Positions 39,501 through 56,178 of a DNA stretch of 64,000 nucleotides are shown one piece after another (position 1 is the stretch's first letter; each line of letters starts with the position of its first letter). The stretch is taken from assembly GCA_043799545.1 (NCBI GenBank), contig JAZDNO010000006.1, positions 82,091 to 146,090 on the forward strand. Direction: 5' to 3'. The notes under the pieces were generated by a model that saw only the letters and a list, made by a program, of their open reading frames with translations, did not search any database and was not told where the DNA came from. A program made the translations under genes and the position numbers. The stretch is from Methanobacteriota archaeon. GTDB taxonomy: Archaea; Thermoplasmatota; Thermoplasmata; SG8-5; DAIRED01.

Positions 39501-39521
39501 GCCACTGGAGGGATTTGAACC
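39501..39521 (-). repeat. 21-nt copy of the 3' end (T arm plus acceptor) of the adjacent tRNA-Thr
   Basis: gccactggagggatttgaacc is identical to 39610..39630. No complete cloverleaf could be folded around it. Confidence 0.5.
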
Positions 39522-39608
39522 GACGACCAGTTGGATAGCAATGCTATATGTCCCCTATGGTGGTCTAAGTTCAAATCCCATCAAGCTAGGAGCGATATAA
39601 ATAAATTA

Positions 39609-39682
39609 AGCCACTGGAGGGATTTGAACCCCCGACCTGCTGATTACAAATCAGCCGCTCCACCGAGCTAAGCTACAGTGGC
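39609..39682 (-). tRNA. tRNA-Thr (anticodon UGU)
   Basis: The reverse complement folds as a canonical cloverleaf: acceptor GCCACTG/CAGTGGC, D arm GCTT..GAGC, anticodon stem GCTGA/TCAGC with loop TTTGTAA, T arm GGGGG-TTCAAAT-CCCTC. CCA is not encoded. Confidence 0.8.
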
Positions 39683-39801
39683 GTTTTATTGCTTATGAAT
39701 GGATTTGTATTTCCGACGGACTCCCGAAGCTGAGCCGGAACAAATGCATTGTGGCTCAGCGAGGCACAGACCTTCACCAACCGGAAGGCTGGTCTAGTGC
39801 A

Positions 39802-39823
39802 CCGAGCTAAGCTACAGTGGCAT
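39802..39823 (-). repeat. 22-nt copy of the 5' end (acceptor plus D arm) of the adjacent tRNA-Thr
   Basis: caccgagctaagctacagtggc is identical to 39661..39682. The following sequence (39700..39801) has hairpins but no canonical tRNA body. Confidence 0.5.
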
Positions 39824-44209: not shown

Positions 44210-46624
44210 GTGGTTCCCAAAGCTGGCAAAGACGAAGAAGCGACCTGTCCGGTCTGCGGTGGGCCCATAGACGAGGCTGGCGCGAAATGCGCCCGGTGCG
44301 GCGCGGCCTATGTCGCCCCTGGAGACAGAAAGGCGAAAAAGAAGGTCCAGATTGCCCACGGCAGCAAGCCCGAGAAAAAGGAGGCTGCACCCGAGAAACC
44401 TCCCCAGGCAGCGAACGATTCTAAGAATGCGGCCGCCAAGGAAAGCAACGCCGACCTGGCCAAATGGCTGAGCGGCGAGGAGGAGGAAAAGGGCCTGACG
44501 GACTGGCTTGGTGGCGGCAAGACTGAGGCGAAACAGCCGTCCAGGCCCAGCGCAAAGCCAGCTCCGGCACAAGATGCCAAGGACTCCAACGTCGACGCTC
44601 TCAAAGCCTGGCTCAGCGGTGAGGAGGACACGCTTACTTCGTGGCTTGGTGAAGACCCCACGGCGAAACCCAAGGCCGCCTCGGTCCCGTCAGTGGTCTC
44701 GGACGAGGTCAGCAAGGAGCTGGGGGAGCGGGAGAGCGCCCTCGCTGAGAAGGAGACCGCCTTGAAAAAGCGCGAGGAAGACCTCGATGCCATGAGGGGG
44801 GCGCTTCAGGAGCAGCTTTCAAAGGTCCAGACGGGCGAGTTCGATCCGATGGTCCTAATAGAAGAGACGGCCAGGCTCAACAGGGATCTCCAGGCGGAGG
44901 TGAGGAAGCGCAAGGAGCTGGACGACGAAATTGTCCAGGTCAAGAAGGGAAGCATCGCGGTCATCAAGTACGTCAAAGCGCAGCAGATGCAGCGCGGCGG
45001 GGACGCGGCCCGCTCCATCCACAAGCGTCTGGACGAGGTCACCGCGGAGAAGGAGAGGCTCACAGTCGAACTCAAGAAGACCATGGAAATAAACGAAAAG
45101 ATGAAGGCGGACATGGCCGAGGGGCTGAAAGCCCTGCCCGACGGCGACCGGGCCATCAAGGAGAAGGAGATGGCCCTGATGGAGCAGGAAAAGCAGCTGG
45201 AAGCATCGAAAGCGGAGCTGCATGAGAAGGAAAAGCAGATGCGCGAAGCGGTGATTTCCTCCGGCGGGGGGGTAGGGGCGGCTTCGGCTGAGTTGCAGCA
45301 GCGCTTGATGGCCGAGCTCGGGGAGAAAGAGAAGGAATGGCTCAAGAACGAGGGCGAGCTGAAGAAGCGCATACTCGACCTTGAAGCCAACATACAGGAG
45401 CTTAAGATTAACCAGAAGCAGGTCCAGGAGGCGGCGGAGCTCAAGGGCAAGGGTGCGGAGGTCAACGCAGAGCTCGAGCGCAAGATACGCGAGCTTCAGA
45501 TAAAAGAGAAGGCGATGCTCCTCAGGGAGGAGGAGATAAGGAGGCTGTCCCAGCAGCTGAAGGACAAGGACGAGGAGCTCAAGAAGGTCAAGGAGCCCTT
45601 GAAGTACAAGGAGGAGGAGCTGCTGAGGCGCGAAGAGGACCTGCTCCACCGCGAGAAGATATTGATGGAGGAGCGCAGGAAGTACGAGGAGGCGGTGAAA
45701 GACACCGGCAGCCTCCAGACGCACGACATGAAGATGAAGATTGAGGAGCTGAACCAGGAGATAAACCGCAAGGAGGAGCAGATACGCACCAAGGAGCAGT
45801 ACCTCAACGCCAAGATGGAGGACCTTAAGCTGAGGGAGCAGGGGCTCATAGGCCAGGAAATCGAGGCGCGCGAGGAAGACCGCAAGCTGGAGCTGAAAAT
45901 CGAGAAGGTCAAAACGGGCACTTCGAGACTGGACGACCTTCTGCTCGGAGGCATACCTTTCGGGACGAACGTCCTGGTCTACGGTCCGCCTTTCGCCGGA
46001 AAGGAGATTGCCATCAACGCCTTCATCGCAGACGGCCTGAAGAAGGGCGTTCCGGCAATCTGGGTCATCACCGACAAGCTCCCCTCCGAGATACGCGAGG
46101 AGATGATGTTCATAGTGTCAGGGTACGAGGAATACGAAAAGCTCGGCCTGGTCAAATACGTAGATGCGTATTCCAAGAGCATCGGCGAGGTCACGCCTGA
46201 CCCCAATGTCACTTACATCGAAGAGGCCACGGACCACGTGGGCATCTTGAAGGCAGTGGACGCGGTGGCGAAGGAGCTGCTGCAGAAGCACAAGTACTAC
46301 CGGGTGGGGTTCAGGTCGATTTCCACCCTGATAGCGTACCTGGATTCGAACGCCGCATTCAAATTCCTACAGCCGTTCGTCGGCAGGCGCAAGCGCGAGC
46401 GCGCCGTATCCCTCTTCTCCATCGAGAAGGGAATGCACAGCGACCAGGACATCCAGATGATCGGAAGCCAGATGGACGGGGCCATAGAATTCAAGATCGA
46501 GCAGCTGAAGACCTTCCTTTGCATCAAGGGAATCGGCGACGTGCAGTCGAAGGCGTGGATAGAATACACATACAGCAAGCAGGGCATGGCAGTTGGCTCA
46601 TTCAGCTTGGACCATATACGTTAA
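44210..46624 (+). CDS. Zn-ribbon plus WLSGEE-repeat region plus about 450-aa coiled coil plus C-terminal KaiC/RecA-like (FlaH-like) domain with degenerate Walker A
   Basis: N-terminal CPVCGG..CARCG ribbon. Two repeats of LxxWLSGEE..T.WLG. An extremely E/K/L-rich heptad region. The C-terminus LDDLLLGGIPFGTNVLVYGPPFAGKE..ITDKLP has a KaiC-like fold, but the Walker A ends GKE instead of GKT/S. Confidence 0.55.
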   Translation: MVPKAGKDEEATCPVCGGPIDEAGAKCARCGAAYVAPGDRKAKKKVQIAHGSKPEKKEAAPEKPPQAANDSKNAAAKESNADLAKWLSGEEEEKGLTDWLGGGKTEAKQPSRPSAKPAPAQDAKDSNVDALKAWLSGEEDTLTSWLGEDPTAKPKAASVPSVVSDEVSKELGERESALAEKETALKKREEDLDAMRGALQEQLSKVQTGEFDPMVLIEETARLNRDLQAEVRKRKELDDEIVQVKKGSIAVIKYVKAQQMQRGGDAARSIHKRLDEVTAEKERLTVELKKTMEINEKMKADMAEGLKALPDGDRAIKEKEMALMEQEKQLEASKAELHEKEKQMREAVISSGGGVGAASAELQQRLMAELGEKEKEWLKNEGELKKRILDLEANIQELKINQKQVQEAAELKGKGAEVNAELERKIRELQIKEKAMLLREEEIRRLSQQLKDKDEELKKVKEPLKYKEEELLRREEDLLHREKILMEERRKYEEAVKDTGSLQTHDMKMKIEELNQEINRKEEQIRTKEQYLNAKMEDLKLREQGLIGQEIEAREEDRKLELKIEKVKTGTSRLDDLLLGGIPFGTNVLVYGPPFAGKEIAINAFIADGLKKGVPAIWVITDKLPSEIREEMMFIVSGYEEYEKLGLVKYVDAYSKSIGEVTPDPNVTYIEEATDHVGILKAVDAVAKELLQKHKYYRVGFRSISTLIAYLDSNAAFKFLQPFVGRRKRERAVSLFSIEKGMHSDQDIQMIGSQMDGAIEFKIEQLKTFLCIKGIGDVQSKAWIEYTYSKQGMAVGSFSLDHIR

Positions 46625-46777
46625 GCCATCATTTTTTCCGCTTCCAAAGGAATAACGGCAACGGAACGAATAGGAAGAAAAACAGCCAGCCAGTTAATAT
46701 GAATACAGTTATCGAGGCTGCCATGGTTAGGATTAGAATCCCCATAAGAAACCAAGGCGAGAAAACCCAGTCCGCCT

Positions 46778-47200
46778 TCATGCGACTTCGATTCCGGATG
46801 AGGGCTTGGGTCCCGGGCTCTTCCCGATGTTGACCTGCGGCATCGGAATCGGCGGGGGCATCTTCAGGTCCCTGGAGACCATGACCGCCTCTGGCACGCA
46901 GTTCATCATTATCGCCTGGTGAACCTGCGTCGCCACGTCGTCCGGCATCTTGTGCTCGGTCTGCCACTGCTTGGCGACCGCGCTGGCATTGCCTTCGAAG
47001 ACCATCTTGCCCTCGATTTTAATGAAGCCGATGCTCGAGTAGTTGGCTGTGAATCTGAACTCCACGTTGGCCTCCTTGTTATTGATTTCGGAGATGAGCG
47101 TTATACTGCTGTTGTGGTCTATCCTGATGTTGCCCATGGCCTCACCCAGCTTCGTGAAGCGCCGCGCGTCAATCGAGGTGAACTCGAAATTCGTTATCAT
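46778..47200 (-). CDS. Hypothetical protein
   Basis: 140-aa ORF with coding-like composition and no recognisable motifs. A possible about 50-aa hydrophobic mini-ORF (MKADWVFSPWFLMGILILT...) follows in another frame at 46629..46780. Confidence 0.3.
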   Translation of the reverse strand: MITNFEFTSIDARRFTKLGEAMGNIRIDHNSSITLISEINNKEANVEFRFTANYSSIGFIKIEGKMVFEGNASAVAKQWQTEHKMPDDVATQVHQAIMMNCVPEAVMVSRDLKMPPPIPMPQVNIGKSPGPKPSSGIEVA

Positions 47201-47332
47201 GCACTATGCCAATGACCCGAGGTGGATTAATAACTTTCGCTTCTAATCGCTGCCGCCACAGCGCCATTATGTATGGTGCATCTCAAGGCCGTACTTGAAC
47301 TGCCGACCTTCGACGGAAGGTGTGATTGGCGG

Positions 47333-49543
47333 TCAGCTGTGTTCAAGCCCTATGTTCGAGCATCGAATACGCTCCGATGGTGGCAAATAAATCCGGACTT
47401 GAACCGCAGAATCGCTTCGTTTAGCAATCAAGTTCGATGATTCTGCAAGTTCAAGTCCCCTGCGGCATGAATAGCTGAAAAAATAAAACCTAATGCCGCA
47501 GGCCGGACTTGAACCAGCGACAACTTGATCTTCAGTCAAGCACTCTCCCAGCTGAGTTACTGCGGCACCGTCTCCGGGAAGCCCGCCAGCGTTGCGCTCC
47601 TCTGTGGCGGAGGGGGTTGATTGGACTGCCCCTACATTAAGCTTGCCTTCCCCACCTCTGGTGACCTCGGTGATATTCTCAACAAAGCTCCAGTTCACGG
47701 CGTAGATTTCCGCCCACGTCCCGCGGGTTTCGTTCTCGAACGAGGCGGCCAATACGAACGGCTCCTCCCTCAGCATCGCGAGCGTCTCGTCCGAGACCGG
47801 GGGAAGGCTCATGCCGGCCAGGGAGACCCCGCTGACGCGCATCACGTCGTCCACGAGCACGCAGCCCACGCGGGTCCCGTTCGTTCCGTTTAGTACGTCC
47901 ATGCAGTCGCGCCATTGTGTGGCGTTCCAGATGGCGGCGCCTCCCTCGAACGTCGCCCGGAGTCCCATGGCCTCCAGCTGCGTTCCGAGCCTGTGGTCGG
48001 TTGCGACAGAATATCCAGGGGTGGCGTTCTGGCCAAGCCAATCTAGCGCCGCCAGGTCTTCGTCGCTTATCCGTTCGTCGAAGCCAATCTCAGGCGCCAA
48101 ACGGTAGCTTGCCAGAGCGCTCCCGACAAGCAATGCGACGACCAGGACGGGGACGACGGCGCGCGAACCGACCCTCCAACCCTTTTCATCGATCCAGACG
48201 CCCCTGCCCTCCCACTGTTGCCGTGTGTCCAAGGATGCTGGCCGCAGGTCCGAAATGAATGCCGCATCGCTTCCCCCGACCGTTCCTCCACTCTTGGGCA
48301 GGAAGGGGATGAACCTTCTGGTGGTCTCCATGGAAAAGGCCCTCTCAATGCTTGGCGCAAGCAGGAAAGCCATCCCCATGGCCGCGAAGAGCGACAGTGG
48401 CTCCATCAGGTACTCGAGGTGCCTCTCCGGCAAAAGAATGTCGCTGCCGACTGCGAGCGCAACCGCCATAGAGAGTCCAACCGCCGCGAACCATCCTACG
48501 ATTTCAGAACCCCTTTCAAGCATGGCGGTCCTGCTCAACCCAACAGCGCCGAAGGCCAGGATGGCGAAGACAGGCACAGAATAGACCGCGAGCATGGGAG
48601 TGGCCCTCGATGCTATGGCCGGGCTGTCGGCGATTACCAGCAATGCAATCGTGAAGGTAAGGGCTGAGAACGCGAGTATGAATTTCATTTTTTCATAGCC
48701 TCGCGACACGGGGTCGGAAAGCCAATCCAAGACCGACCTGAACCGTCTCCTGAGAACCAGCAAAGCCGCGGCGAACACCGCATATGCCAGAACGATTGCC
48801 GGCCAGGGGAGCCTGGTTCCTGTTTTCACGAAGGAGAGCACCTCGGTCGCGACGAGCCCCCAGTAAGCGAACGCGAGACATGCGGCGAACGCGATGTATG
48901 CTAGCTGGGCCTTCGAGGGGGCTCGGCGCTGAAGCGCAACCATAGCCGGAAGGGACGCCAGATACAGGTAGGTTGTGAAGTGGTGGGAGCCCACCAGCAG
49001 AGCCGTCGAAGCGATGAGGAGCGCCCAGTCCGCCCTGCCCATCGAGGGCTTGGTCAGCAGGAACATGCATGCCAGGAAGAAGAAATGGCCCATCGTCAAA
49101 GGAGCCGCGTGGCTCGTCTGGTAGACGTGGACGGAATTGACAGCCAAGAGAGCCATGGCGAGAAGCGCGGTTCGGCGCCCCATTCCCGCATTCCTGGCTA
49201 TGAAGTACACGAAGGCCACGGATAGCCCGCCGAACACAGGCGCGACCTTCGTCATCAGCCAGAACGCGTCCGAACCCGTGAGCAGGTGCGGTAATGCCGT
49301 AACCAAATAGAGCACCGGAAAATGCTCGTACGATTGCCCCCATCCGATATATGGCGGGAACAGCGCCCCGTTGTTTATGACCGAAGATGTGAGACCGTAA
49401 TAAATTCCCATATCGCTTCCCCATCCAGAATATATCCAGGCTGGAACTGAGCGAAGGGCGATTGCGAGGGCGCAGAGCCCGATGAAAGCGAGGGCGTGCG
49501 GATTTCGCAGATGCCGCCCGAGAAGCGCCCCCGTTCGAGACAT
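47333..49543 (-). CDS. Polytopic membrane protein with a large sequon-rich extracytoplasmic C-terminal domain, possibly a GT-C-fold glycosyltransferase (ArnT/PMT-like)
   Basis: About 13 TM helices, then a soluble domain with many N-x-S/T sequons. No WWDYG motif, so not a canonical AglB. Start taken at MSRTGALLG; the tracked ORF runs to 49957. The open reading frame continues through tRNA-Phe to 47333. Confidence 0.4.
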   Translation of the reverse strand: MSRTGALLGRHLRNPHALAFIGLCALAIALRSVPAWIYSGWGSDMGIYYGLTSSVINNGALFPPYIGWGQSYEHFPVLYLVTALPHLLTGSDAFWLMTKVAPVFGGLSVAFVYFIARNAGMGRRTALLAMALLAVNSVHVYQTSHAAPLTMGHFFFLACMFLLTKPSMGRADWALLIASTALLVGSHHFTTYLYLASLPAMVALQRRAPSKAQLAYIAFAACLAFAYWGLVATEVLSFVKTGTRLPWPAIVLAYAVFAAALLVLRRRFRSVLDWLSDPVSRGYEKMKFILAFSALTFTIALLVIADSPAIASRATPMLAVYSVPVFAILAFGAVGLSRTAMLERGSEIVGWFAAVGLSMAVALAVGSDILLPERHLEYLMEPLSLFAAMGMAFLLAPSIERAFSMETTRRFIPFLPKSGGTVGGSDAAFISDLRPASLDTRQQWEGRGVWIDEKGWRVGSRAVVPVLVVALLVGSALASYRLAPEIGFDERISDEDLAALDWLGQNATPGYSVATDHRLGTQLEAMGLRATFEGGAAIWNATQWRDCMDVLNGTNGTRVGCVLVDDVMRVSGVSLAGMSLPPVSDETLAMLREEPFVLAASFENETRGTWAEIYAVNWSFVENITEVTRGGEGKLNVGAVQSTPSATEERNAGGLPGDGAAVTQLGECLTEDQVVAGSSPACGIRFYFFSYSCRRGLELAESSNLIAKRSDSAVQVRIYLPPSERIRCSNIGLEHS
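47380..47467 (-). other. tRNA-like remnant with Phe-type acceptor start, T-arm-like copies and an 8-bp hairpin
   Basis: Begins GCCGCAGG like tRNA-Phe and contains GGTTCAAGTCCGG (a T-arm copy), but no foldable cloverleaf. The long hairpin is GCAGAATC...GATTCTGC. More CTTGAAC/GTTCAAG motifs lie at 47320..47360. Confidence 0.35.
47494..47566 (-). tRNA. tRNA-Phe (anticodon GAA)
   Basis: Reverse complement GCCGCAG-TA-ACTC-AGCTGGGA-GAGT-G-CTTGA-CTGAAGA-TCAAG-TTGTC-GCTGG-TTCAAGT-CCGGC-CTGCGGC-A is a perfect cloverleaf with a 7-bp acceptor and a GAA anticodon. Confidence 0.85.
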
Positions 49544-49665
49544 CACGTTCCCCAAGTGCGAAGCCTCCTTCAAATTCGCAACAGGATTTAGTGGTTTTGT
49601 GAGGATATAAGCATATTTGTAAAGCGGTGCCGGGAAGCGCTGAAATGCATATCGTAACCAGCGAC

Positions 49666-49697
49666 ATCTATATATATATAATAGGCTATAATTGGTA
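49666..49697. promoter_or_regulatory. AT-rich divergent promoter region with a (TA)n tract and TATA-like boxes
   Basis: ctatatatatataataggctataattgg lies between the divergent genes starting at about 49543 (minus) and 49727 (plus). It is the most AT-rich intergenic stretch in the window. Confidence 0.35.
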
Positions 49698-49726
49698 AAG
49701 CGCGAGCCTAGCCAAGGAAATAAGTT

Positions 49727-50674
49727 TTGGGGCTTGAGAAGATGTATAGAGGAAGGCGAGGAGAGGGTGGGCGCATAAACCCCTCCCCGAGATGGGGGAG
49801 CGAGGGTGTAGCTTCCACCGTGGGAACGATAATGGCCCTGATGGTTTTCATGGCGATGCTCTCCGTCTTCACTAACCAGTACGTCCCGGTCTGGATGGAG
49901 GACAACGAAGCGAAGCATATGAACGTCGTCGAATCCCAGATGGGAATGCTCAAGCACGGGATTGACACGCAGATACTGGTGGGCCAGCTCGGTGGCGCCA
50001 CGGACATCTCGGTGTACAGTCCCATTACACTGGGTTCGGAGGGCGTTCCGATGTTCGCAGCCCCGACTCAGGGTTATCTGGACGTGCTCCCGGACAGGGG
50101 GCGAAGCACGGTTAATTTCCAGTTCGACCCCAACCCCACGGACCCGACCAGCACACCGGTATCGATTACCTCCTCAAGCACCGGCAGCATAGCCATGGAA
50201 GCCCCGAACCGGTACTACGTTCCGCAGATACTCACATACGAGAACGATGCAATCATCCTCAAGCAGGGCGATGGGGTCATCATGAAGAGCGTTCCCCAGT
50301 TCAGTGTGAGGCAGGAGGGCAACAACTTCCGCGTCTCCTTCACGCAAGTCACTCTCTACGGTGTCAATAAATCGTACGTTGGAAGCGGGACGACCGGGGT
50401 GCACACATCCCTGAGGTACACGAATTCCAGCACGTACAACAACCTCACGACAGATGTCACGATAACGATAACGAGCACGTACGCAAACGCATGGAATGCC
50501 TATTTTAGCGACTACTTGCCCAGAGCGGGTCTCCTTCCGGCGGAATACACGATAGTGCTCAATCCCCCGTTGGCGCCCACACAGCTTGTTCTCACGCTGC
50601 GTATGAACTCTTTCTCCAGCGTCACGGTGAACCAGGCGTATTTCGAAATCCTCATGGGGGAGGTGGGCGAGTAA
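49727..50674 (+). CDS. Type IV pilin-like / FlaF-FlaG-like protein with an N-terminal class-III-signal-like hydrophobic segment
   Basis: A basic N-terminus (RGRRGEGGR) followed by ASTVGTIMALMVFMAMLSVFTNQYVPVW resembles archaeal prepilin/FlaF N-termini. The rest is beta-rich with sequons. First gene of the pilus-like cluster. Confidence 0.45.
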   Translation: MGLEKMYRGRRGEGGRINPSPRWGSEGVASTVGTIMALMVFMAMLSVFTNQYVPVWMEDNEAKHMNVVESQMGMLKHGIDTQILVGQLGGATDISVYSPITLGSEGVPMFAAPTQGYLDVLPDRGRSTVNFQFDPNPTDPTSTPVSITSSSTGSIAMEAPNRYYVPQILTYENDAIILKQGDGVIMKSVPQFSVRQEGNNFRVSFTQVTLYGVNKSYVGSGTTGVHTSLRYTNSSTYNNLTTDVTITITSTYANAWNAYFSDYLPRAGLLPAEYTIVLNPPLAPTQLVLTLRMNSFSSVTVNQAYFEILMGEVGE

Positions 50675-52356
50675 TGGGCCTGAAAGAATCGTACATTGGG
50701 GCGGTGATGAAGGCCGGTTCAAAGAAGATAAAGAAGATGGTCCCCAAAGGCGAGCTGGTCCTGGAGCAGGATTGGAAGGAAGGCCGCGGTTCGCCGCTCT
50801 CCCCAATACCAGAGCTGACGAAAACGACGATGGAGGAGCTGGAGCTGGCTCCGATCAACCCTCCGTTCAGCTATTCGAGGATATTTTACGATTCCGAGAC
50901 CGCAGAATATATATATCAGACCATAGAGCCCCCGATGAGCGACAAGGAGCTGGACCTGCTCCGCCTGATAAAGGACTCGTTGGGCCGGACTCTGGAGTAC
51001 GAGCTGGACAAAATGGGCAACAAGGACAAGGAGGAGTACCTGAAGCGCAGCATAGAGAGCTTCCTGAAAACGCGCAGCCTCAGGATAGACCCCCAGTCAA
51101 AGGAGAAGATTGTGTATTACATAGTCAGAGACTACGTTGGCTACGGCCCGATAGACGTCCTGATGTCGGACCCAAAGATTGAAGATATTTCGTGCGACGG
51201 CGTCAACGTCCCGCTTTTCATATTCCACCAGAAGTACGAATCGATCAAGACGAGCGTCAAGTTCCCGAACGAGGCGGAGCTGAACAGCTTTGTAGTCCAG
51301 CTGGGACAGAGGTGCGGCAAGCAGATTTCCGTCGCCACGCCTATCTTAGACGGTACGACTGGCGAGGGCCACCGCGTCCAGGCGACGTACTCCCGCGAGG
51401 TAACGACCCGCGGCTCGTCGTACACCATCCGCCGTTTCAAGGAGAAGCCTTTCACTCCGGTGGAAATGATAAAGTTCAACACCGCGAACGCGGAGATGAT
51501 AGCATACATGTGGCTGGCGGTCGAGCACGGGAAGTCGATGATAATATGCGGCGGCACGGCGAGCGGAAAAACGGCCACTCTCAATGCGTCCGCCATATTC
51601 ATCGCCCCTGGCAAGAAGATAGTCACGATGGAGGATACGAGAGAGATTAACCTTCCTCACGAAAACTGGATTCCGGGCACGACGCGCACGGGGGTGGGGG
51701 AGCGCGGGCCGGACGGGAAGGCGCCAGGCGAGATAGACATGTTCGAGCTCGTCAGGGCGGCGCTGAGGCAGAGGCCGAACTACATCATCGTCGGAGAGGT
51801 TCGTGGAAAGGAGACCTCGACGATGTTCCAGGCGATGGCTACGGGTCATACGACATTCTCGACGATGCACGCCGACTCGGTGAAGAGCATGGTGACAAGG
51901 CTGGAGAACCCGCCAATCAGCACGCCCAGGATTCTCTTGACGGCGCTGAACTTCGTCATCATCCAGCTCCACGTCCGAGTCAAGGACAGCGAGGTCAGGC
52001 GTATCACCCAAATAGTCGAATTGGTGGGATTCGAGCCCGAAACCAACGAGCTGATAACCAACACGGTCTACGAGTGGGACCAGCGCACGGACTCTTTCAT
52101 CTACAAGGGGCACAGCTTCATCCTGGACGGTCTCATGGAGATGAAGAACATGACCCACGAGGAGATGCAGCGGGAGTTCACCCAGCGCGTGGACGTCATC
52201 AAGTATCTGGTCGAGAAGGACATCACGGATTACAGGGAGATAAACAACCTTATCGTGCTTTACTACAAGGATGCCACGGCGACTGTCACCAAAATAAGGG
52301 AGGAAATGGGCTGGACAGTCCAGGTCCAGATGGAGGGCGGCGAAGTTGGCGCATGA
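50674..52356 (+). CDS. FlaI/TadA-type type IV filament assembly ATPase, copy 1
   Basis: Walker A GGTASGKTATLNA, Asp box MEDTREINLPHENW, Walker B IIVGEVRGKE, His box TFSTMHADSV. An extended N-terminal domain as in archaeal FlaI. Confidence 0.85.
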   Translation: MGLKESYIGAVMKAGSKKIKKMVPKGELVLEQDWKEGRGSPLSPIPELTKTTMEELELAPINPPFSYSRIFYDSETAEYIYQTIEPPMSDKELDLLRLIKDSLGRTLEYELDKMGNKDKEEYLKRSIESFLKTRSLRIDPQSKEKIVYYIVRDYVGYGPIDVLMSDPKIEDISCDGVNVPLFIFHQKYESIKTSVKFPNEAELNSFVVQLGQRCGKQISVATPILDGTTGEGHRVQATYSREVTTRGSSYTIRRFKEKPFTPVEMIKFNTANAEMIAYMWLAVEHGKSMIICGGTASGKTATLNASAIFIAPGKKIVTMEDTREINLPHENWIPGTTRTGVGERGPDGKAPGEIDMFELVRAALRQRPNYIIVGEVRGKETSTMFQAMATGHTTFSTMHADSVKSMVTRLENPPISTPRILLTALNFVIIQLHVRVKDSEVRRITQIVELVGFEPETNELITNTVYEWDQRTDSFIYKGHSFILDGLMEMKNMTHEEMQREFTQRVDVIKYLVEKDITDYREINNLIVLYYKDATATVTKIREEMGWTVQVQMEGGEVGA

Positions 52357-53371
52357 GACCGTCGATGCCTTCAGAAGCCTGGAGGCGAAGGACCAGCACC
52401 TCAAGACGAAGCGCCTTCGCTCGGACGAGGAAAGGGAGGCCGGGCCGCACGTGGTCCTGCTTCCGAAGGGCGCGGTGCCGGAGTACATCAAGCTCACTCC
52501 GTACCAGGAGTTCTGCTGGCGCACCATGGGCAACTACGTCAAGCGTCGTGGCATGAGGGACGAGTTGATGGAGGAGAACCTCGTGAAGGCGCATATGAAG
52601 ATACGCCCCGAGGAGTACTTCGCGCTCATCTACATGACGACCATTATAGCGGCCATAGGAGGCGTCGTGGCTGGCACTGTCATGGCAATATTATTCTTCG
52701 TGGTTTTCACCACCACCGCCATGGTGCTGGGTATTATGTTGACCGTGCTGCCCCCAATCTTGATTCCCATTCTGGTATTCAACGTCCTCAAGGGCTCGCC
52801 GAAGAGCAAGGCGAAGGGCCGCGCGCGGAATATTGATAAAAGGATGGCCAGCGCGATGAGCTTCATTTCCGCGATGGCATCGGCGAACGTTCCCATCGAC
52901 GTGATATTCAAGGAGCTTGGAAGGCAGCCAGTCTACGGCGAAATCAAGTCCGAGGCCGAGTGGATTACCCGTGACACGGAGCTGCTGGGTGTTGACATCA
53001 TCACCGCCGTCAAGAGCGGCTCCCTGCGGTCGCCCTCGACGAAGTTCCAGGACTTCCTCCAGGGCGTCGTCACAACCACGACATCCGGGGGCCAGCTGAA
53101 ACCGTACTTCATGACGAAGGTGGACCAGTTCGAGAAGGAAGACAAGCTTTTGATGAAGCAGACTATGGAAACGCTCTCGATGCTCGCAGAAAGCTACGTG
53201 ACGGTCGTGGTCGCGTTCCCGCTTTTCCTTGTCGTCATCCTCGCGATTATGGCAATCATAGGCGGCACGGCGGCGTCGACTGTAATGATACTATGGCTGG
53301 TAGTGGGACTGATGATTCCGATGGCTATGTTCGGCTTCATATTCGTGATTTGGAACATCAGCCAGGACTGA
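52346..53371 (+). CDS. TadB/FlaJ-like platform membrane protein (T2SS-F domain), first half
   Basis: Cytoplasmic T2SSF-like domain followed by 3 TM helices, 341 aa. Overlaps the ATPase stop by 11 nt. Confidence 0.7.
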   Translation: MAHETVDAFRSLEAKDQHLKTKRLRSDEEREAGPHVVLLPKGAVPEYIKLTPYQEFCWRTMGNYVKRRGMRDELMEENLVKAHMKIRPEEYFALIYMTTIIAAIGGVVAGTVMAILFFVVFTTTAMVLGIMLTVLPPILIPILVFNVLKGSPKSKAKGRARNIDKRMASAMSFISAMASANVPIDVIFKELGRQPVYGEIKSEAEWITRDTELLGVDIITAVKSGSLRSPSTKFQDFLQGVVTTTTSGGQLKPYFMTKVDQFEKEDKLLMKQTMETLSMLAESYVTVVVAFPLFLVVILAIMAIIGGTAASTVMILWLVVGLMIPMAMFGFIFVIWNISQD

Positions 53372-53375
53372 TAGC

Positions 53376-54416
53376 ATGGCCAAACAACAGCAGCAGATGA
53401 CCAATGAGGAGATGAAGAGGGTCGTGATGTCGACCAAGCGCGACCTCACCAGGGTAATCCTTGGCGTCAGCATAGCCGTGGCTATGATATTCGTCATCCT
53501 CGGCGTCCTTAACCTGACCAACCCCCAAGAGTTCGATCACTCGATGAAGGCTTTGAAGCTCAAGGACACCAACCTGGACGGCAGGATAGACTATCTGGAC
53601 ATCAACGCGGGTTACGACAGCAACGGGGACGACGTTCCAGACCAGGGTGAGTACCCCATCAAGCGCTTGGCCAACTTCGTGGTTTTCGCGATGATGGTCA
53701 TGATAGGGCCTTATGCATTCTACAAGTCGAAACAGGATGCCAACATAGTCGCCATCGAGCGCAGGCTTCCAGAGTTCCTCAGGGACGTGGCGGAGGCCGG
53801 GCGCTTCGGCATGACCCTCGCCGACGCCATCGTGGTCGCCGCCAACGGCCGCTACGGCAAGCTTACCATCGAAATCAAGAAGATGGCCGCGCAGATAGAG
53901 TGGGGCGTGCCCGCCTCCGAAGCTCTGAGGCTCTTCGCGGTGCGCATCAACACGCCGGGCGTAAACAGGCTCGTGGCTGTCATCATCAAGGCGAGCGATG
54001 CGGGCGGAAACGTCGCCGACGTTCTGACGATGGTGTCGCACGACGCTCGCGAGACGCAGCTGTCGAAGGACGAGCGGGCGATATCGATGAGCACGTACCT
54101 GGCGGTTGTTTACATCTCTTTCTTCGTTTTCCTCGTGACCATCATCATCTTGAACGCGACGTTCCTACCGAAGATACGCGAGGCGGGAACGATGGTCACC
54201 AGGGCATCGGCCGAGGCGGGGGTTTCCGGCGGAATGGCAACGCTGGACGTCACGGTCATACCCCAGATTGAGCTGGCGTTCTTCGTCTCATCGATGATTC
54301 ACGCGGTCGGCGACGGCATTATGGCCGGCGTGCTGACGAACGGAAAGGTGGCTGCCGGACTGAAGCACTCGTTCATCCTTCTGCTCCTGGGATTCGTCGT
54401 CCTGCAGGTGACCTGA
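53376..54416 (+). CDS. TadC/FlaJ-like platform membrane protein (T2SS-F domain), second half
   Basis: 346 aa with an N-terminal TM segment, a T2SSF-like cytoplasmic domain (RLPEFLRDVAEAGRFGMTLADAI) and C-terminal TM helices. A separate start codon lies 4 nt after the previous stop. Confidence 0.7.
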   Translation: MAKQQQQMTNEEMKRVVMSTKRDLTRVILGVSIAVAMIFVILGVLNLTNPQEFDHSMKALKLKDTNLDGRIDYLDINAGYDSNGDDVPDQGEYPIKRLANFVVFAMMVMIGPYAFYKSKQDANIVAIERRLPEFLRDVAEAGRFGMTLADAIVVAANGRYGKLTIEIKKMAAQIEWGVPASEALRLFAVRINTPGVNRLVAVIIKASDAGGNVADVLTMVSHDARETQLSKDERAISMSTYLAVVYISFFVFLVTIIILNATFLPKIREAGTMVTRASAEAGVSGGMATLDVTVIPQIELAFFVSSMIHAVGDGIMAGVLTNGKVAAGLKHSFILLLLGFVVLQVT

Positions 54417-54426
54417 GGTGAGATGA

Positions 54427-56178
54427 ATGGCGTCCGAGTCCGCGTTGGAGGAAAAGGGGAAGCCCGAAGCCCAGGCCGTGGTGGAAGACGACCAGGCCGT
54501 CGACGAGAGCGGTTTCATGCAGGCGGTGCATTCCGCTCGCGCCAAGCTCGCCAAAAGGATGATGGGCGAGGGCAAGGGCTACAAGATAATGAATGCGAAG
54601 GTGGACGACTCCTTCAAAGGCGAGGTCACAACCATACCCAAGCTAACTGACAAGCACATGAGCGAGATAGAGATTGTGCCGGCTATCAAGGGATTTTCGT
54701 ACATCCGGATTAAGTACGACAACGTTTCCAACGAGTACATCTACGAGGCAATCGAACCGCAGCTCAGCAGCGAGGAGGAGAACCTGCTCTCCATTTTCAA
54801 GGAGATACTCGTGGAGGCGCTGGAGTTTCTGGCGGACACCAGGGTGGAGGCTAAGGAGAAGTACCTCAAGGGGGCCGTCTCCAGCATCCTGGCCGACCTC
54901 GGCATCACGCTCAACCCAGCCTCGAAGGAGCGCATCACCTACTACATCATGAGGGATTTCATCCGCTACGCGGCGCTCGACGTGGCAATGATAGACCCCG
55001 AGGTGGAGGACGTATCCTGCGACGGAGTGAACGTTCCGATATATATCTATCACAGGAAATACGGCTCTATCCAGTCGAACATCCGGTTCAAGACGGCCCC
55101 GGAGCTGGACAGCTTCGTCGTCTGGCTGGCCCAAAAGTGTGGCAAGCACATCTCCGTCGCCGAGCCTATGCTCGACGCGACTATTCCAGACGGCTCGAGG
55201 CTGCAGGCCACGCTGGGGATGCACGTCACCAAGCGCGGCTCCTCATTCACAATCCGCAGGTTCAAGGAGAACCCTTTCACCCCGCTGGACCTCATCCGGT
55301 TCAAGACCATGTCGCTAGACATGATGGCTTACCTCTGGCTCTGCATCGAGAACGGGAAATCGATGCTCGTATGCGGAGGCACTGCGAGCGGTAAAACGAC
55401 CACGCTCAACGCGATTCTTCTGTTCATCCCGCCTCAGATGAAGATTGTCAGCATCGAGGACACGCGCGAGCTGAACCTCCCGCACGAGAACTGGGTCCCG
55501 ACCCTGACCAGGGCAGGTTTCGGCGGGAAGAACCCGGTGACGGGAAAGGCTGCTGGCGAGATAGACATGTTCGACCTGCTCACGGCCGCGCTGAGGCAGC
55601 GCCCCCAGTACCTGATGGTCGGCGAGGTCCGTGGTTCGGAGGCGTACGTCGTGTTCCAGGCCATGGCTACGGGCAAGACCGCATACACCACGTTCCACGC
55701 CGAAGACGTCCAGTCGATGGTCCACAGGATGGAGAACCCGCCGATATCGCTGCCGAGGGCGCTAATCGGGGCTCTGAACCTGGTGATGATGCAGGCACAG
55801 GTGAAGGTTGGCACGAAGATGACGAGGCGCGTCAAGTCCCTCACGGAGGTCGTGGGCATGGACCCCGAGACGAACGAGCTCATTACGAACTCGGTCTACA
55901 CGTGGAACCCGGCGGACGACACGTTCAACTACTCCGGTCACAGCTACATTTACGAGGACATCACGATGAGGAAGAACTGGTCCCCGAGGGAGATGCAGCG
56001 CGAGGTCAAGCGCCGGATAGACGTTCTATCGTGGATGAGCAAAGCCAATATGAACAACTACCGCCAGGTCGCGAGGATTGTCTCCGGGTACTACAAGGAC
56101 AAGGACCGGGTCATCGAGGAGCTCAACAAGTACGCCGCAGACGAAGAGGCTAAGAAGGCTGCGGCCCCGAAAGCGTAG
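54427..56178 (+). CDS. FlaI/TadA-type type IV filament ATPase, copy 2 (paralog of 50674..52356)
   Basis: Walker A GGTASGKTTTLNA, IEDTRELNLPHENW, LMVGEVRGSE, TTFHAEDV. About 55 to 60% identical to copy 1 over the conserved regions I compared by eye. Confidence 0.85.
   Translation: MASESALEEKGKPEAQAVVEDDQAVDESGFMQAVHSARAKLAKRMMGEGKGYKIMNAKVDDSFKGEVTTIPKLTDKHMSEIEIVPAIKGFSYIRIKYDNVSNEYIYEAIEPQLSSEEENLLSIFKEILVEALEFLADTRVEAKEKYLKGAVSSILADLGITLNPASKERITYYIMRDFIRYAALDVAMIDPEVEDVSCDGVNVPIYIYHRKYGSIQSNIRFKTAPELDSFVVWLAQKCGKHISVAEPMLDATIPDGSRLQATLGMHVTKRGSSFTIRRFKENPFTPLDLIRFKTMSLDMMAYLWLCIENGKSMLVCGGTASGKTTTLNAILLFIPPQMKIVSIEDTRELNLPHENWVPTLTRAGFGGKNPVTGKAAGEIDMFDLLTAALRQRPQYLMVGEVRGSEAYVVFQAMATGKTAYTTFHAEDVQSMVHRMENPPISLPRALIGALNLVMMQAQVKVGTKMTRRVKSLTEVVGMDPETNELITNSVYTWNPADDTFNYSGHSYIYEDITMRKNWSPREMQREVKRRIDVLSWMSKANMNNYRQVARIVSGYYKDKDRVIEELNKYAADEEAKKAAAPKA

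What the first reader, a model, noticed from the sequence alone, without database searches (positions are those of the whole stretch)
47300..49957. tRNA-Phe lies inside the 3' end of a same-strand protein ORF, beside tRNA-derived repeats
The minus-strand ORF that begins at or before 49543 has no stop codon until 47333. It therefore reads straight through tRNA-Phe (47494..47566, same strand) and the adjacent tRNA-like remnant. Five copies of the T-loop motif (GTTCAAG/CTTGAAC) occur within about 270 bp (47320..47570), including a duplicated CCGGACTTGAACC. Same-strand ORF/tRNA overlap is characteristic of integrase-att arrangements, but this ORF is a membrane protein. Alternatives are a sequencing frameshift hiding the true stop, mRNA truncation by tRNA processing producing a non-stop message, or tRNA gene insertion by recombination into the gene's 3' end.
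Basis: seen in the sequence. Interest (0 to 1): 0.5.

Follow-up and report, generated by a model that had tools for sequence, protein, structure and literature searches.

The report
Stop-less glycosyltransferase gene running into tRNA-Phe
In a small group of uncultured Thermoplasmatota archaea, a working membrane glycosyltransferase gene has no stop codon before the tRNA-Phe gene that directly follows it, so its message probably ends at the tRNA without a stop, and conserved hairpins copied from the tRNA's own 3' end sit just downstream.

Summary
tRNA-Phe(GAA) is at 47494..47566 (-). The same-strand ORF from ATG 49543 has no stop until TGA 47335..47333. Five alternating T-loop copies lie at 47291..47514.

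It is not an assembly frameshift. Five other lineages, from independent assemblies, also lack a stop between this gene and tRNA-Phe. About 78 more distant homologues stop 1-13 codons after the conserved domain and have no tRNA downstream.

The gene is a GT-C/GT39-like glycosyltransferase under purifying selection (omega 0.15-0.41, dS above 1.2). The tRNA belongs to a self-contained unit: a BRE/TATA-like box (TTAATGTA), a leader of about 40 nt, the tRNA and an oligo-T run. That unit also occurs inverted with the glycosyltransferase deleted (L114). The ORF tail is incidental: no third-position excess after the TATA box, and variable frame and stop position.

Inferred, not shown: the mRNA ends at the tRNA through RNase P cleavage or at the oligo-T run, so it lacks a stop. 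The closest analogue is plant mitochondrial ccmC/nad6.

The downstream "remnants" are conserved palindromic units built from an inverted and a direct copy of the tRNA 3' end. tRNA-Thr in the same window has one too. Their function is unknown. No integrase is present in the 64 kb.

The parts
47666..49543 (-). Conserved body of a GT-C / GT39 (PMT-like) membrane glycosyltransferase, about 626 aa. The wider family ends here, roughly 10 residues after the VNW motif.
   Evidence: There are 204 homologues, typically about 600 aa and covering about 82% of the query; some are named 'glycosyltransferase family 39 protein' by their source. Family-invariant residues are kept. The Pfam PMT match is weak: 18.4 bits against a 22.7 cut-off. 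dN/dS is 0.15-0.41 with dS 1.2-2.5 among five lineages.
47651..47665 (-). Last few clade-specific codons (..EVTRGGE) at the position where the family's stop codon would be. No stop is present in any of the six fused lineages.
   Evidence: Alignments A1 and A2. The pre-TATA linker still shows a third-codon-position excess of 0.39/0.32/0.55.
47633..47650 (-). BRE/TATA-like box GGCAAGC-TTAATGTA, the presumed promoter of tRNA-Phe, lying inside the ORF. The glycosyltransferase frame (CTT AAT GTA G) is the only frame without a stop here; the other two hit TAA or TAG.
   Evidence: Invariant TTAATGTAG in 8 lineages. The conserved block starts at GGCAA even where the glycosyltransferase is absent (L114). 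Promoter function is inferred from resemblance to the next gene's GCGAAAGTTATTAAT box.
47567..47632 (-). Region between the TATA box and the tRNA. It contains the invariant CCAATCAACC (47615..47624), the predicted transcription start near 47605-47610, and a 5' leader of about 40 nt.
   Evidence: The TATA-to-tRNA distance is 68-79 nt in all lineages. There is no third-position excess: 0.32/0.23/0.25. A folded leader has no covariation support.
47494..47566 (-). tRNA-Phe (anticodon GAA), a canonical cloverleaf with no encoded CCA. It is read by the ORF as AAVTQLGECLTEDQVVAGSSPACG.
   Evidence: Compensatory anticodon-stem changes in L003. Only one of three frames crosses the tRNA without a stop: the others hit TAA at nt 8-10 or TGA in the anticodon loop.
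47478..47488 (-). Oligo-T run TTTTATTTTTT directly after the tRNA, an archaeal terminator-like signal. It lies 143 nt upstream of the ORF's stop codon.
   Evidence: Sequence. A T-run follows the tRNA in every lineage. A 1-nt length difference here between the window and L001 changes the downstream reading frame.
47393..47467 (-). Palindromic unit A. Its 5' arm is an inverted copy of the tRNA-Phe 3' end (TGCCGCAGGGGACTTGAAC, followed by TT-GCAGAATC). A 25-nt loop follows. Its 3' arm is GATTCTGC-G-GTTCAAGTCCGG, a direct copy of the T-loop region.
   Evidence: Folding energy -31.1 kcal/mol, z = -4.2. Arms are 94-100% identical in 5 lineages against 55% for the loop. One compensatory pair, UA to CG.
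47277..47350 (-). Palindromic unit C, a second and more diverged unit with the same architecture: GGGCTTGAAC / GCTGACC .. GGTCGGC / GTTCAAGTAC, then GGCCTTGAGATGCA. It contains the ORF's stop codon.
   Evidence: (z = -1.4). The L113 copy has a compensatory inner stem, GATGACC/GGTCATC.
47333..47335 (-). TGA, the first in-frame stop of the ORF, inside unit C.
   Evidence: Stop positions differ in every lineage.
46778..47240 (-). Next gene, a conserved 140-aa protein of unknown function, with its BRE/TATA box GCGAAAGTTATTAAT (47226..47240) 25 nt before ATG 47200. This marks the downstream limit of the locus.
39609..39682 (-). tRNA-Thr(TGT), the window's only other tRNA.
39501..39579 (-). Palindromic unit after tRNA-Thr with the same geometry as unit A. 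The inverted T-loop copy GGGATTTGAAC starts 29 nt after the tRNA. The exact 21-nt direct copy of the tRNA 3' end starts 87 nt after it. A T-run follows.
   Evidence: z = -3.0. The unit is conserved in L104 and L105, with concerted change of all three copies.
39800..39821 (-). Exact 22-nt copy of the tRNA-Thr 5' end, 139 nt upstream of the tRNA. It is probably a by-product of the inversion of this tRNA unit relative to L104 and L105.

Best explanation
What it is: a real and evolutionarily old gene-tRNA fusion, not an artefact.

Origin (supported by comparison): in an ancestor of a small Thermoplasmatota clade, a self-contained tRNA-Phe transcription unit came to lie directly against the 3' end of a functional GT-C/GT39-type membrane glycosyltransferase gene. 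The unit consists of a BRE/TATA-like box GGCAAsnTTAATGTAG, a leader of about 40 nt, the tRNA and an oligo-T terminator. The gene's own stop codon was lost at the junction. The reading frame entered the TATA box in the only frame that has no stop there.

The ORF tail (shown): everything the ORF 'encodes' from the TATA box onward is incidental. That stretch is constrained as DNA/RNA, not as protein. The ORF ends wherever the first chance stop falls, and this differs between lineages.

Consequence (inferred, not shown): there is no oligo-T run between the gene and the tRNA, so glycosyltransferase transcripts run into the tRNA. They are then either cut by RNase P at the tRNA 5' end or terminated at the oligo-T run just after the tRNA. 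Both points lie upstream of the next in-frame stop. In L004 the stop lies inside the tRNA and would be removed with it. Most glycosyltransferase mRNAs would therefore carry no stop codon. The enzyme would be made with a tail of about 40 residues and released by the archaeal stalled-ribosome rescue pathway (aPelota/ABCE1).

The downstream repeats: these are conserved palindromic units. Each is made of an inverted plus a direct copy of the tRNA's 3' third. They probably originated as att-type duplications at a recombination-prone tRNA locus. They are now kept by selection, possibly as termination, processing or recombination signals. Their function is unknown.
For: Shown by tool results:
- ORF and tRNA geometry.
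- Six fused lineages without a stop before the tRNA: the window, L001, L002, L003, L004 and L102 (=L107-109).
- About 78 outgroup loci stop 1-13 codons after the domain and have no tRNA within 1.2 kb.
- Glycosyltransferase omega is 0.15-0.41 with saturated dS of 1.2-2.5. The gene is therefore functional, and the near-identical leader and hairpin arms reflect nucleotide-level constraint.
- Third-position excess is present up to the TATA box (0.39/0.32/0.55) and absent after it (0.32/0.23/0.25).
- G+C falls from 0.60-0.68 in the gene body to about 0.50 beyond 47600.
- Linker length is 74, 68 or 79 nt. L004 is out of frame and stops at the tRNA's own TAA (nt 8-10). The window and L001 differ by 1 nt in the T-run, so the same DNA is read in different frames.
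- tRNA changes are compensatory for the RNA structure, not for the protein.
- The promoter-leader-tRNA unit is found inverted with the glycosyltransferase deleted (L114), and without a recognisable glycosyltransferase upstream (L113).
- In all in-frame lineages the T-run after the tRNA precedes the stop.
- Hairpin units have z-scores of -3.0 to -4.9, except unit C at -1.4. Arms are 94-100% identical against 55% for loops. Compensatory pairs occur in A, B, C and the Thr unit.
- The same architecture follows tRNA-Thr and is conserved in L104 and L105.

From the literature:
- In plant mitochondria, RNase P cleavage at an overlapping tRNA-like element produces ccmC and nad6 mRNAs that end inside the ORF, upstream of the stop (PMC1920247).
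- Haloferax cells excise tRNA-like elements from longer transcripts with RNase P and tRNase Z (PMC4946936).

Annotation gap: the window's glycosyltransferase protein is absent from the protein collection although its neighbours from the same NCBI MAG are present. This suggests annotators could not release it as a normal CDS.
Against: - No transcript, read-depth or proteome data were available. Co-transcription, RNase P cleavage of the co-transcript, use of the TTAATGTA box as a promoter, and the non-stop state of the mRNA are all inferred.
- A TATA box 66-74 nt upstream of a tRNA is unusually far. tRNA-Thr in this clade has its box at about -25 to -40.
- Six lineages (about four or five independent) without any stop in about 40 codons is mildly improbable under full neutrality. 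My rough estimate is P about 0.04-0.07. Some selection against an earlier stop, or for the tail, cannot be excluded.
- A non-stop mRNA is expected to be inefficient, which sits awkwardly with purifying selection on the enzyme.
- The origin and function of the palindromic units are not established. Sense and antisense strands fold equally well, so even the level at which they act, RNA or DNA, is open.
Confidence: 0.7

Rival explanations
1. Assembly or sequencing error: a frameshift or missing base in this MAG hides the true stop codon, and the real protein ends before the tRNA.
For: The window comes from a metagenome-assembled genome, and homopolymer and indel errors do occur. The wider family ends about 10 residues after VNW.
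Against: Five other lineages from independent assemblies (JGI, ENA, NCBI) show the same stop-less junction. The linker has stops in both other frames only at the TATA box, so no single indel upstream would restore a family-like end without changing conserved residues.
Confidence: 0.02
2. True dual coding: the C-terminal extension through promoter, leader and tRNA is translated and is a functional, selected part of the enzyme. The same DNA then encodes both a tRNA and a protein segment.
For: No stop has arisen in about 40 codons in any of six lineages, and four of them cross the tRNA in the single open frame. EGKLNVG.QST is conserved at the amino-acid level.
Against: That conservation is nucleotide-level. 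It is identical in L114, where no ORF enters it. There is no third-position excess. L004 is in another frame, L003 has a 6-nt deletion, and post-tRNA tails differ in frame and length. tRNA substitutions follow RNA pairing. Outgroups lack any extension.
Confidence: 0.07
3. Read-through translation: transcripts largely ignore the oligo-T run and are not cut by RNase P while being translated. Ribosomes then translate through the tRNA sequence and terminate normally at the downstream stop (47333 in the window), giving a harmless variable tail and no non-stop mRNA.
For: In five of the six fused lineages (all but L004, whose stop is inside the tRNA) an in-frame stop lies within 52-160 nt after the tRNA. 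Archaeal oligo-T termination is not complete, and coupled translation could keep the tRNA unfolded (general knowledge).
Against: The T-run TTTTATTTTTT is a strong terminator-type signal and is conserved directly after the tRNA. An essential single-copy tRNA must be excised efficiently. Hairpin units with a second T-run follow.
Confidence: 0.18
4. The glycosyltransferase is a decaying pseudogene in this clade, and loss of its stop is one symptom.
For: The gene has been deleted in L114 and is perhaps degraded in L113. NCBI released no protein for it.
Against: An intact ORF of about 620 codons with all family-invariant residues survives in five lineages separated by dS above 1.2, with omega 0.15-0.41.
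Confidence: 0.04
5. The tRNA-derived repeats are only neutral scars (attL/attR-type duplications) left by integrative elements that inserted into the tRNA 3' end and were later deleted. They have no present function.
For: Direct copies of the tRNA 3' end downstream of the tRNA are the classic footprint of element integration in archaea (PMC9897764; PMC5861418). The order of units differs between lineages: A-C, A, A-B, B-A, A-C-B, B. In L002 the flank of unit A's direct copy equals the tRNA flank of L102. Both tRNA units are found inverted in some relatives.
Against: Only about 65-85 nt lie between the copies, and no integrase or other mobile-element domain was found in the Pfam scan of the window's larger ORFs. 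There are no matches in viral contigs. Integration does not explain the inverted copy. Arms are 94-100% identical while loops (55%) and synonymous sites (dS above 1.2) have diverged, and compensatory pairs occur in four unit types. The geometry is the same at two different tRNAs.
Confidence: 0.15

Closest known systems
Plant mitochondrial t-elements at ccmC and nad6 (Forner et al. 2007, PMC1920247)
   Same: A tRNA-like structure overlaps the 3' end of a same-strand ORF. RNase P cleavage at its 5' end gives a major mRNA 3' end inside the reading frame, upstream of the stop, so the mRNA is stop-less. The elements carry the GGTTCRANYCC T-loop motif, as the units here do.
   Different: That case is organellar; this one is an archaeal chromosome. 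Here the overlapping element is a bona fide essential tRNA with its own promoter inside the ORF, and the gene has no stop at all before it. Processing here is inferred, not mapped.
Animal mitochondrial tRNA punctuation with incomplete stop codons (Ojala et al. 1981; own knowledge; reviews listed)
   Same: Protein genes abut same-strand tRNAs without a complete stop, and tRNA excision defines the mRNA end.
   Different: In mitochondria a terminal T or TA is completed to TAA by polyadenylation. Here the mRNA would end ...GAC GGU, so added A's would not create an in-frame stop. The tRNA here also has its own promoter and terminator.
tRNA gene fragments from integration of mobile elements in archaea (van der Gulik et al. 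2023, PMC9897764; SNJ2-type integrases, PMC5861418)
   Same: Direct copies of the 3' part of a tRNA gene lie downstream of the intact gene, and the locus is prone to rearrangement.
   Different: Known cases flank 9-23 kb elements that carry an integrase. Here the copies are about 110 nt apart and no element or integrase is present. Each direct copy is paired with an inverted copy to form a hairpin, and the units are conserved over saturated synonymous divergence.
SSV-type integrase/att arrangement (att site inside the int ORF, overlapping a tRNA; own knowledge)
   Same: Same-strand overlap of an ORF with tRNA-derived sequence.
   Different: The ORF here is a GT-C glycosyltransferase, not a recombinase. 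The overlap covers the whole tRNA plus its promoter. No provirus is present.
E. coli arfA, a naturally non-stop mRNA produced by RNase III cleavage (own knowledge)
   Same: A cellular gene whose mature mRNA lacks a stop codon by design of its 3' end processing.
   Different: It is bacterial, it uses a hairpin and RNase III, and it has a regulatory logic tied to tmRNA. No such logic is evident here, and archaea lack tmRNA.

Membership tests
Canonical tRNA (Rfam RF00005), isotype Phe | Cloverleaf scoring above the family's gathering score | tested here: met
   65.4 bits against 29, model positions 1-71 of 71. ARAGORN agrees.
Canonical tRNA (Rfam RF00005), isotype Phe | GAA anticodon; conservation with compensatory stem changes in relatives | tested here: met
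   Anticodon GAA in all 8 lineages. The anticodon stem is CTTGA/TCAAG in the window and CAAGA/TCTTG in L003 and L114.
GT-C fold glycosyltransferase, family 39 / PMT-like (Pfam PF02366) | Significant match to the PMT profile | tested here: inconclusive
   18.4 bits, E = 0.0017, below the curated cut-off of 22.7. Three homologues carry precomputed PF02366 hits, and NCBI names several 'glycosyltransferase family 39 protein'.
GT-C fold glycosyltransferase, family 39 / PMT-like (Pfam PF02366) | Multi-pass membrane N-terminal part with a conserved acidic residue in the first loop, plus a soluble C-terminal domain | tested here: inconclusive
   The invariant W41-G42-x-D44-x-G46-I-Y-Y motif and many hydrophobic segments are visible in alignment A1. 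No topology or structure prediction was run.
Integrase-att arrangement (SSV-type or tRNA-targeting tyrosine integrase) | The overlapping ORF is a tyrosine recombinase | tested here: not met
   The ORF is a glycosyltransferase.
Integrase-att arrangement (SSV-type or tRNA-targeting tyrosine integrase) | An integrated element with mobile-element genes lies between direct copies of the tRNA 3' end | tested here: not met
   The copies are 104-110 nt apart. The 34 scanned ORFs gave housekeeping-type Pfam matches or none, with no recombinase or transposase domain.
Scar of mobile-element integration (tRNA gene fragment) | Direct repeat of the tRNA 3' end downstream of the intact gene | tested here: met
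   13-21 nt exact copies start 67-87 nt after the tRNA in the window, L002, L003 and L102, and also after tRNA-Thr.
Scar of mobile-element integration (tRNA gene fragment) | The fragment evolves neutrally once the element is gone | tested here: not met
   Arms are 94-100% identical across lineages with dS above 1.2, loops are 55% identical, and compensatory pairs are present.
tRNA punctuation / t-element-defined stop-less mRNA | Same-strand ORF abuts or overlaps a tRNA(-like) element with no complete stop before it | tested here: met
   Six lineages.
tRNA punctuation / t-element-defined stop-less mRNA | Co-transcription, with RNase P cleavage generating the mRNA 3' end | not testable with these tools
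   No transcript data. There is no oligo-T run between the gene and the tRNA. Archaeal cells do process embedded tRNA-like elements (PMC4946936).
tRNA punctuation / t-element-defined stop-less mRNA | Stop codon completed by 3' adenylation | tested here: not met
   The sequence before the tRNA is ..GAC GGT in frame. Adding A's gives AAA, not a stop.
Known structured RNA families (Rfam 15) for the hairpin units | Match to any curated covariance model | tested here: not met
   Apart from the tRNA, only chance-level hits at E of 1 or more in 45000..51000.

The most novel reading that the evidence does not exclude
The glycosyltransferase of this archaeal clade is expressed from an obligatorily stop-less mRNA. 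Its 3' end is made by excision or termination of the embedded tRNA-Phe, a chromosomal, prokaryotic version of mitochondrial 'tRNA punctuation'. Every round of its translation would then end in ribosome rescue rather than normal termination, and this state has been stable across lineages whose synonymous sites are saturated. Alongside this, the tRNA-3'-end-derived palindromic units after tRNA-Phe and tRNA-Thr would be a previously undescribed class of conserved tRNA-linked elements.
Probability: 0.45. Interest if true: 0.7.

Novelty: new variant of a known kind. Interest (0 to 1): 0.5.

Why it matters
If the inference holds, this is a natural and conserved case of a cellular archaeal gene that works without a stop codon. 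It would give a defined in-vivo substrate for studying how archaea, which lack tmRNA, resolve ribosomes at the 3' end of stop-less mRNAs. It would also show that tRNA excision can define mRNA ends outside organelles.

There is a practical side. Gene callers extend this gene through the tRNA (JGI) or apparently drop it (no NCBI protein), so this kind of gene-tRNA junction is systematically mis-annotated.

The conserved palindromic units built from tRNA 3' ends, and the repeated inversion of whole tRNA units between close relatives, point to an uncharacterised process. It may be recombinational or RNA-based, and it acts at tRNA loci in these Thermoplasmatota.

Tried and rejected
- Extra or intron-containing tRNA in the 'remnant': ARAGORN with introns and relaxed thresholds finds nothing down to -ps90, and only implausible giant-intron calls at -ps80. 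Rfam finds nothing.
- Bulge-helix-bulge splice motif, K-turn and retroelement primer-binding site in the units, all checked by eye. The internal loops are opposed rather than staggered. There is no TGG before TGCCGCAGG. All three were rejected.
- Folded 5' leader: RNAalifold gives no covariation support, so the leader's conservation is read as primary-sequence (promoter and start region).
- Strand of action of the hairpins: I first thought G.U pairs favoured the tRNA-sense RNA. Sense and antisense energies turned out similar, so the argument was withdrawn.
- Mobile-element origin: there are no matches to unit A or to the tRNA-Phe 3' end in IMG/VR viral contigs. No integrase or transposase domain turned up in the Pfam scan of the window.
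- Shufflon-like variable C-terminus (alternating inverted repeats at a gene's 3' end): rejected. A tRNA and its terminator intervene, frames are not conserved, and no recombinase is nearby.
- Integron attC analogy: noted, but there is no integrase and there are no cassettes.
- Stop created by adenylation after RNase P cleavage: the sequence does not allow it.
- Metagenome scan with the leader pattern: 18 hits, of which only 2 are real (L096 and L102, the same lineage).
- Look-up of the window's own contig failed.
- Five full-text literature searches found no prokaryotic chromosomal precedent for a stop-less ORF running into a tRNA. The library is limited, so this is weak evidence of novelty.

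Full report
1. THE OBSERVATION

ARAGORN and Rfam both find a canonical tRNA-Phe(GAA) on the minus strand at 47494..47566. The Rfam score is 65.4 bits against a gathering score of 29. The minus-strand ORF listed as 49957..47333 is real. Alignment with homologues puts its start at ATG 49543, giving 736 aa. Its first in-frame stop is TGA at 47335..47333. The ORF therefore reads through the whole tRNA in the same strand and frame, as AAVTQLGECLTEDQVVAGSSPACG.

Five copies of the T-loop decamer GTTCAAGTCC/GGACTTGAAC lie in alternating orientation between 47291 and 47514. The window holds 17 such decamers (up to 1 mismatch) against 3.9 expected, and 0 of 100 shuffles reach 17. Eight of them cluster at the window's two tRNAs.

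2. THE ORF AND ITS SURROUNDINGS

The protein belongs to a large family of Thermoplasmatota membrane proteins of about 600 aa. Some members are named 'glycosyltransferase family 39 protein' by NCBI. The Pfam PMT match is weak, 18.4 bits against a 22.7 cut-off.

The gene sits next to a type-IV-pilus-like cluster: a DUF7289 protein, two PilB/T2SSE ATPases and two T2SSF proteins. On the other side are a conserved 140-aa protein and a KaiC-like ATPase.

I ran Pfam on 34 of the 40 largest non-overlapping ORFs of the 64-kb window. All matches were to housekeeping-type families, and no integrase or transposase domain appeared. Five of the 34 gave no match at the E-value thresholds used. Six ORFs were not scanned. 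Five of them have named homologues or orthologue domain calls (PyrB-like, IlvE, RaSEA, dCTP-deaminase-like, Trm5-like). The sixth, 42433..43134 (-), overlaps a diphthine-synthase-like ORF on the other strand and is probably spurious.

3. NOT AN ASSEMBLY ARTEFACT, AND SPECIFIC TO ONE CLADE

The four closest homologues (P0001-P0004, 75-49% identity) are 702-717 aa long, against about 600 for the rest of the family. Their contigs L001-L004 are syntenic with the window, and each carries tRNA-Phe at the end of the ORF. In L001, L002 and L003 the ORF crosses the tRNA in the same frame and stops 52-64 nt beyond it. In L004 the linker is 5 nt longer, and the ORF stops at the TAA formed by tRNA nucleotides 8-10. 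A sixth lineage has the in-frame arrangement on contigs from at least five different assemblies, including NCBI GCA_036803625.1 (L096, L102, L107-L109).

The outgroups differ. In about 78 homologous loci from named Thermoplasmatota MAGs the ORF stops 1-13 codons after the conserved VNW.. end. A minority carry long extra C-terminal domains. None has a tRNA within 1.2 kb downstream. The nearest outgroups, L005 and L006 (47% and 43% identity), have other downstream genes.

4. THE GENE IS ALIVE

Pairwise dN/dS over about 620-640 codons is 0.15-0.41, and dS is 1.2-2.5, which is saturated. Family-invariant residues are intact. Saturated dS also means that unconstrained DNA should be randomised between these lineages. 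That makes any identical non-coding stretch informative.

5. WHAT THE ORF TAIL REALLY IS

The nucleotide alignment shows an invariant block, GGCAAsnTTAATGTAG-N7-CCAATCAACC, 66-74 nt upstream of the tRNA, followed by CGCC...GCTGGC. The block resembles the BRE/TATA box of the next gene, GCGAAAGTTATTAAT, which lies 25 nt before the leaderless ATG at 47200. I read the block as the tRNA-Phe promoter. The predicted start is near 47605-47610 and the leader is about 40 nt. This is an inference.

Codon-position analysis supports a change of regime at the TATA box. Third-position excess is present in the domain tail (0.26/0.28/0.46) and in the pre-TATA linker (0.39/0.32/0.55). It is absent from the TATA box to the tRNA (0.32/0.23/0.25). 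G+C drops from 0.60-0.68 in the gene body to about 0.50 past 47600.

TTAATGTAG contains TAA and TAG in two frames. The glycosyltransferase frame (CTT AAT GTA G) is the only open one. Likewise, only one frame crosses the tRNA without a stop.

Linker lengths are 74 nt (window, L001, L002, L102), 68 nt (L003) and 79 nt (L004). A 1-nt difference in the post-tRNA T-run puts the window and L001 in different frames over otherwise identical DNA. Substitutions inside the tRNA are compensatory for the anticodon stem.

Two further lineages, found through the 140-aa neighbour, show that the promoter-leader-tRNA block is autonomous. In L114 the glycosyltransferase is deleted, leaving only its promoter and ATGTCGAG. 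The block there is inverted, and its leader contains stops. In L113 the block is preceded by sequence with stops in all frames. RNAalifold gives no covariation support for a folded leader.

6. LIKELY MECHANISM (INFERRED)

There is no oligo-T run between the gene body and the tRNA, so glycosyltransferase transcripts should enter the tRNA. A strong T-run, TTTTATTTTTT at 47488..47478, follows the tRNA directly in every lineage. It precedes the next in-frame stop.

Whether the transcript is cut by RNase P at 47567/47566 or terminated at the T-run, the mRNA has no stop codon. In L004 the stop would be removed together with the tRNA. Adenylation cannot create a stop, because the mRNA would end ..GAC GGU.

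Archaeal cells are known to excise tRNA-like elements from longer transcripts with RNase P and tRNase Z (PMC4946936). The closest described analogue is plant mitochondrial ccmC and nad6. Their major mRNA 3' ends lie 46 and 17 nt upstream of the stop, because RNase P cuts at an overlapping t-element (PMC1920247).

From my own knowledge, ribosome release would fall to aPelota/aEF1alpha and ABCE1. The main rival is read-through past the T-run, with normal termination at the downstream stop.

The window's glycosyltransferase protein is absent from the 15-billion-protein collection, although RaSEA (MFH0815705.1) and the 140-aa protein (V1934_02700) from the same NCBI MAG are present. This suggests the annotation pipeline could not release it as a normal CDS.

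7. THE tRNA-DERIVED REPEATS

The 'remnant' is a palindromic unit, A, at 47467..47393. Its 5' arm, TGCCGCAGGGGACTTGAAC, is an inverted copy of the tRNA-Phe 3' end. It is followed by TT-GCAGAATC and a 25-nt loop. Its 3' arm is GATTCTGC-G-GTTCAAGTCCGG, a direct copy of the T-loop region. A second T-run follows. The fold has an energy of -31.1 kcal/mol and z = -4.2.

A second, more diverged unit, C (47350..47277), has the same plan. A third type, B (GCAGGCCGGAGAGGACTAGC..GCTAGTCCGAATCCGGCCTGCGGCA), occurs in L002, L003, L004, L102 and L113.

The order of units varies between lineages:
- window: A-C
- L001: A
- L002: A-B
- L102: B-A
- L113: A-C-B
- L003: B
- L004: B (the contig ends inside the unit, so whatever follows is unseen)

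In L002 the flank after unit A's direct copy (ctcattatttt..caaaGCAGGCC) equals the flank directly after the tRNA in L102. Unit A therefore looks inserted at the tRNA 3' end together with a duplication of that end. That is the classic footprint of integrative elements (PMC9897764; PMC5861418).

Several facts argue against mere scars:
- No element or integrase was found.
- There are no viral-contig matches.
- Integration does not explain the inverted copy.
- Unit A's arms are 94-100% identical in five lineages, while its loop is 55% identical.
- Compensatory pairs occur in A (UA/CG), in B (GGACTAGC/GCTAGTCC against GGACTAAC/GTTAGTCC), in C (GATGACC/GGTCATC against GCTGACC/GGTCGGC) and in the Thr unit (G-C against C-G).

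Sense and antisense strands fold equally well. I therefore cannot say whether the units act as RNA or as DNA. No Rfam family matches them.

8. THE SAME THING AT tRNA-Thr

The window's other tRNA, Thr(TGT) at 39682..39609, is followed by a T-run. An inverted T-loop copy starts 29 nt after the tRNA, an exact 21-nt direct copy of its 3' end starts 87 nt after it, and another T-run follows. For tRNA-Phe the corresponding distances are 24 and 87 nt. The unit is conserved in relatives L104 and L105. In L104 a T-loop variant (TCCAAAT) appears in the tRNA, in the direct copy and, complemented, in the inverted copy. That is concerted evolution of all three copies.

In those relatives the tRNA-Thr unit points the other way relative to the same flanking genes. 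The window also has an extra 22-nt copy of the tRNA 5' end (39821..39800). Both tRNA units of this clade have therefore been inverted in some lineage. Three tRNAs in outgroup loci lack such repeats, which is a small control.

9. COMPARISON AND VERDICT

- The tRNA is a member of RF00005.
- The ORF is a GT39-like enzyme by homology. The Pfam score is below threshold.
- The integrase-att reading fails its defining tests.
- The integration-scar reading passes on the direct repeat but fails on missing element genes and on non-neutral evolution.
- The arrangement works like mitochondrial tRNA punctuation and t-element processing, minus stop completion by adenylation.

Five literature searches found no chromosomal prokaryotic precedent, but the library is partial. 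I rate it a new variant of a known kind, of moderate interest. It is solid as an anatomical and evolutionary fact. The RNA-level consequence and the function of the palindromic units are unproven.

Noticed in passing
window 39501..39821 (-): tRNA-Thr(TGT) carries the same trailing palindromic unit as tRNA-Phe, plus a 22-nt copy of its own 5' end 139 nt upstream. The whole tRNA-plus-unit block is inverted relative to the same flanking genes (IlvE, RaSEA) in relatives L104 and L105.
   Followed up: partly
L104 2232..2413; also L103: The tRNA-Thr of this lineage has an unusual T-loop, TCCAAAT (C at position 55). The same change is present in the downstream direct copy and, complemented, in the inverted copy. 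All three copies have evolved in concert.
   Followed up: partly
L106 2501..3679 (same contig as L003): The JGI gene call for RaSEA (392 aa) starts upstream of tRNA-Thr (2546..2618) and reads through it in frame. The real start is probably ATG 2643. This is an example of a gene caller extending an ORF through a tRNA, and this lineage has no palindromic unit after tRNA-Thr.
   Followed up: partly
L114 (and L115), upstream of the 140-aa gene: In this relative the glycosyltransferase is deleted. Its promoter and the first codons (ATGTCGAG) remain. The tRNA-Phe promoter-leader-tRNA block is inverted and has no palindromic units. A different hairpin, CTTTTTCCA..TGGAAAAAG, follows the tRNA.
   Followed up: partly
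L096 1..320: The first ~320 nt of this 1254-nt metagenome contig encode the end of an unrelated protein, NusB-like by eye, joined directly to the glycosyltransferase 3' end. The contig looks chimeric.
   Followed up: no
window 47333..49543 (-): The window's own glycosyltransferase protein is not in the 15-billion-protein collection, although neighbouring proteins from the same NCBI MAG (MFH0815705.1, V1934_02700) are. It was probably not released as a CDS because of the tRNA overlap.
   Followed up: partly
window 56229..62990 (-): A very large ORF (2253 aa) with CARDB repeats and several zinc-ribbon / double-zinc-ribbon domains lies next to the pilus-like cluster.
   Followed up: no
window 12459..18253 (-): Two adjacent large TPR-repeat proteins (1032 and 914 aa). 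The first has an N-terminal Mrr_cat restriction-endonuclease-like domain and C-terminal zinc-ribbon and helix-hairpin-helix domains.
   Followed up: no
window 44210..46624 (+): A KaiC-like ATPase (804 aa from the GTG start) with an N-terminal zinc-ribbon-like CPVCG..CARCG motif and a long charged coiled-coil-like region. It is conserved next to the locus in L002 and L003.
   Followed up: no
window 50674..56178 (+): Type-IV-pilus/archaellum-like cluster with two PilB/T2SSE ATPases (50674..52356 and 54427..56178) and two T2SSF membrane proteins, next to a DUF7289 protein (49727..50674). The stop-less glycosyltransferase is divergent from it, which may hint at a role in glycosylating pilins.
   Followed up: no
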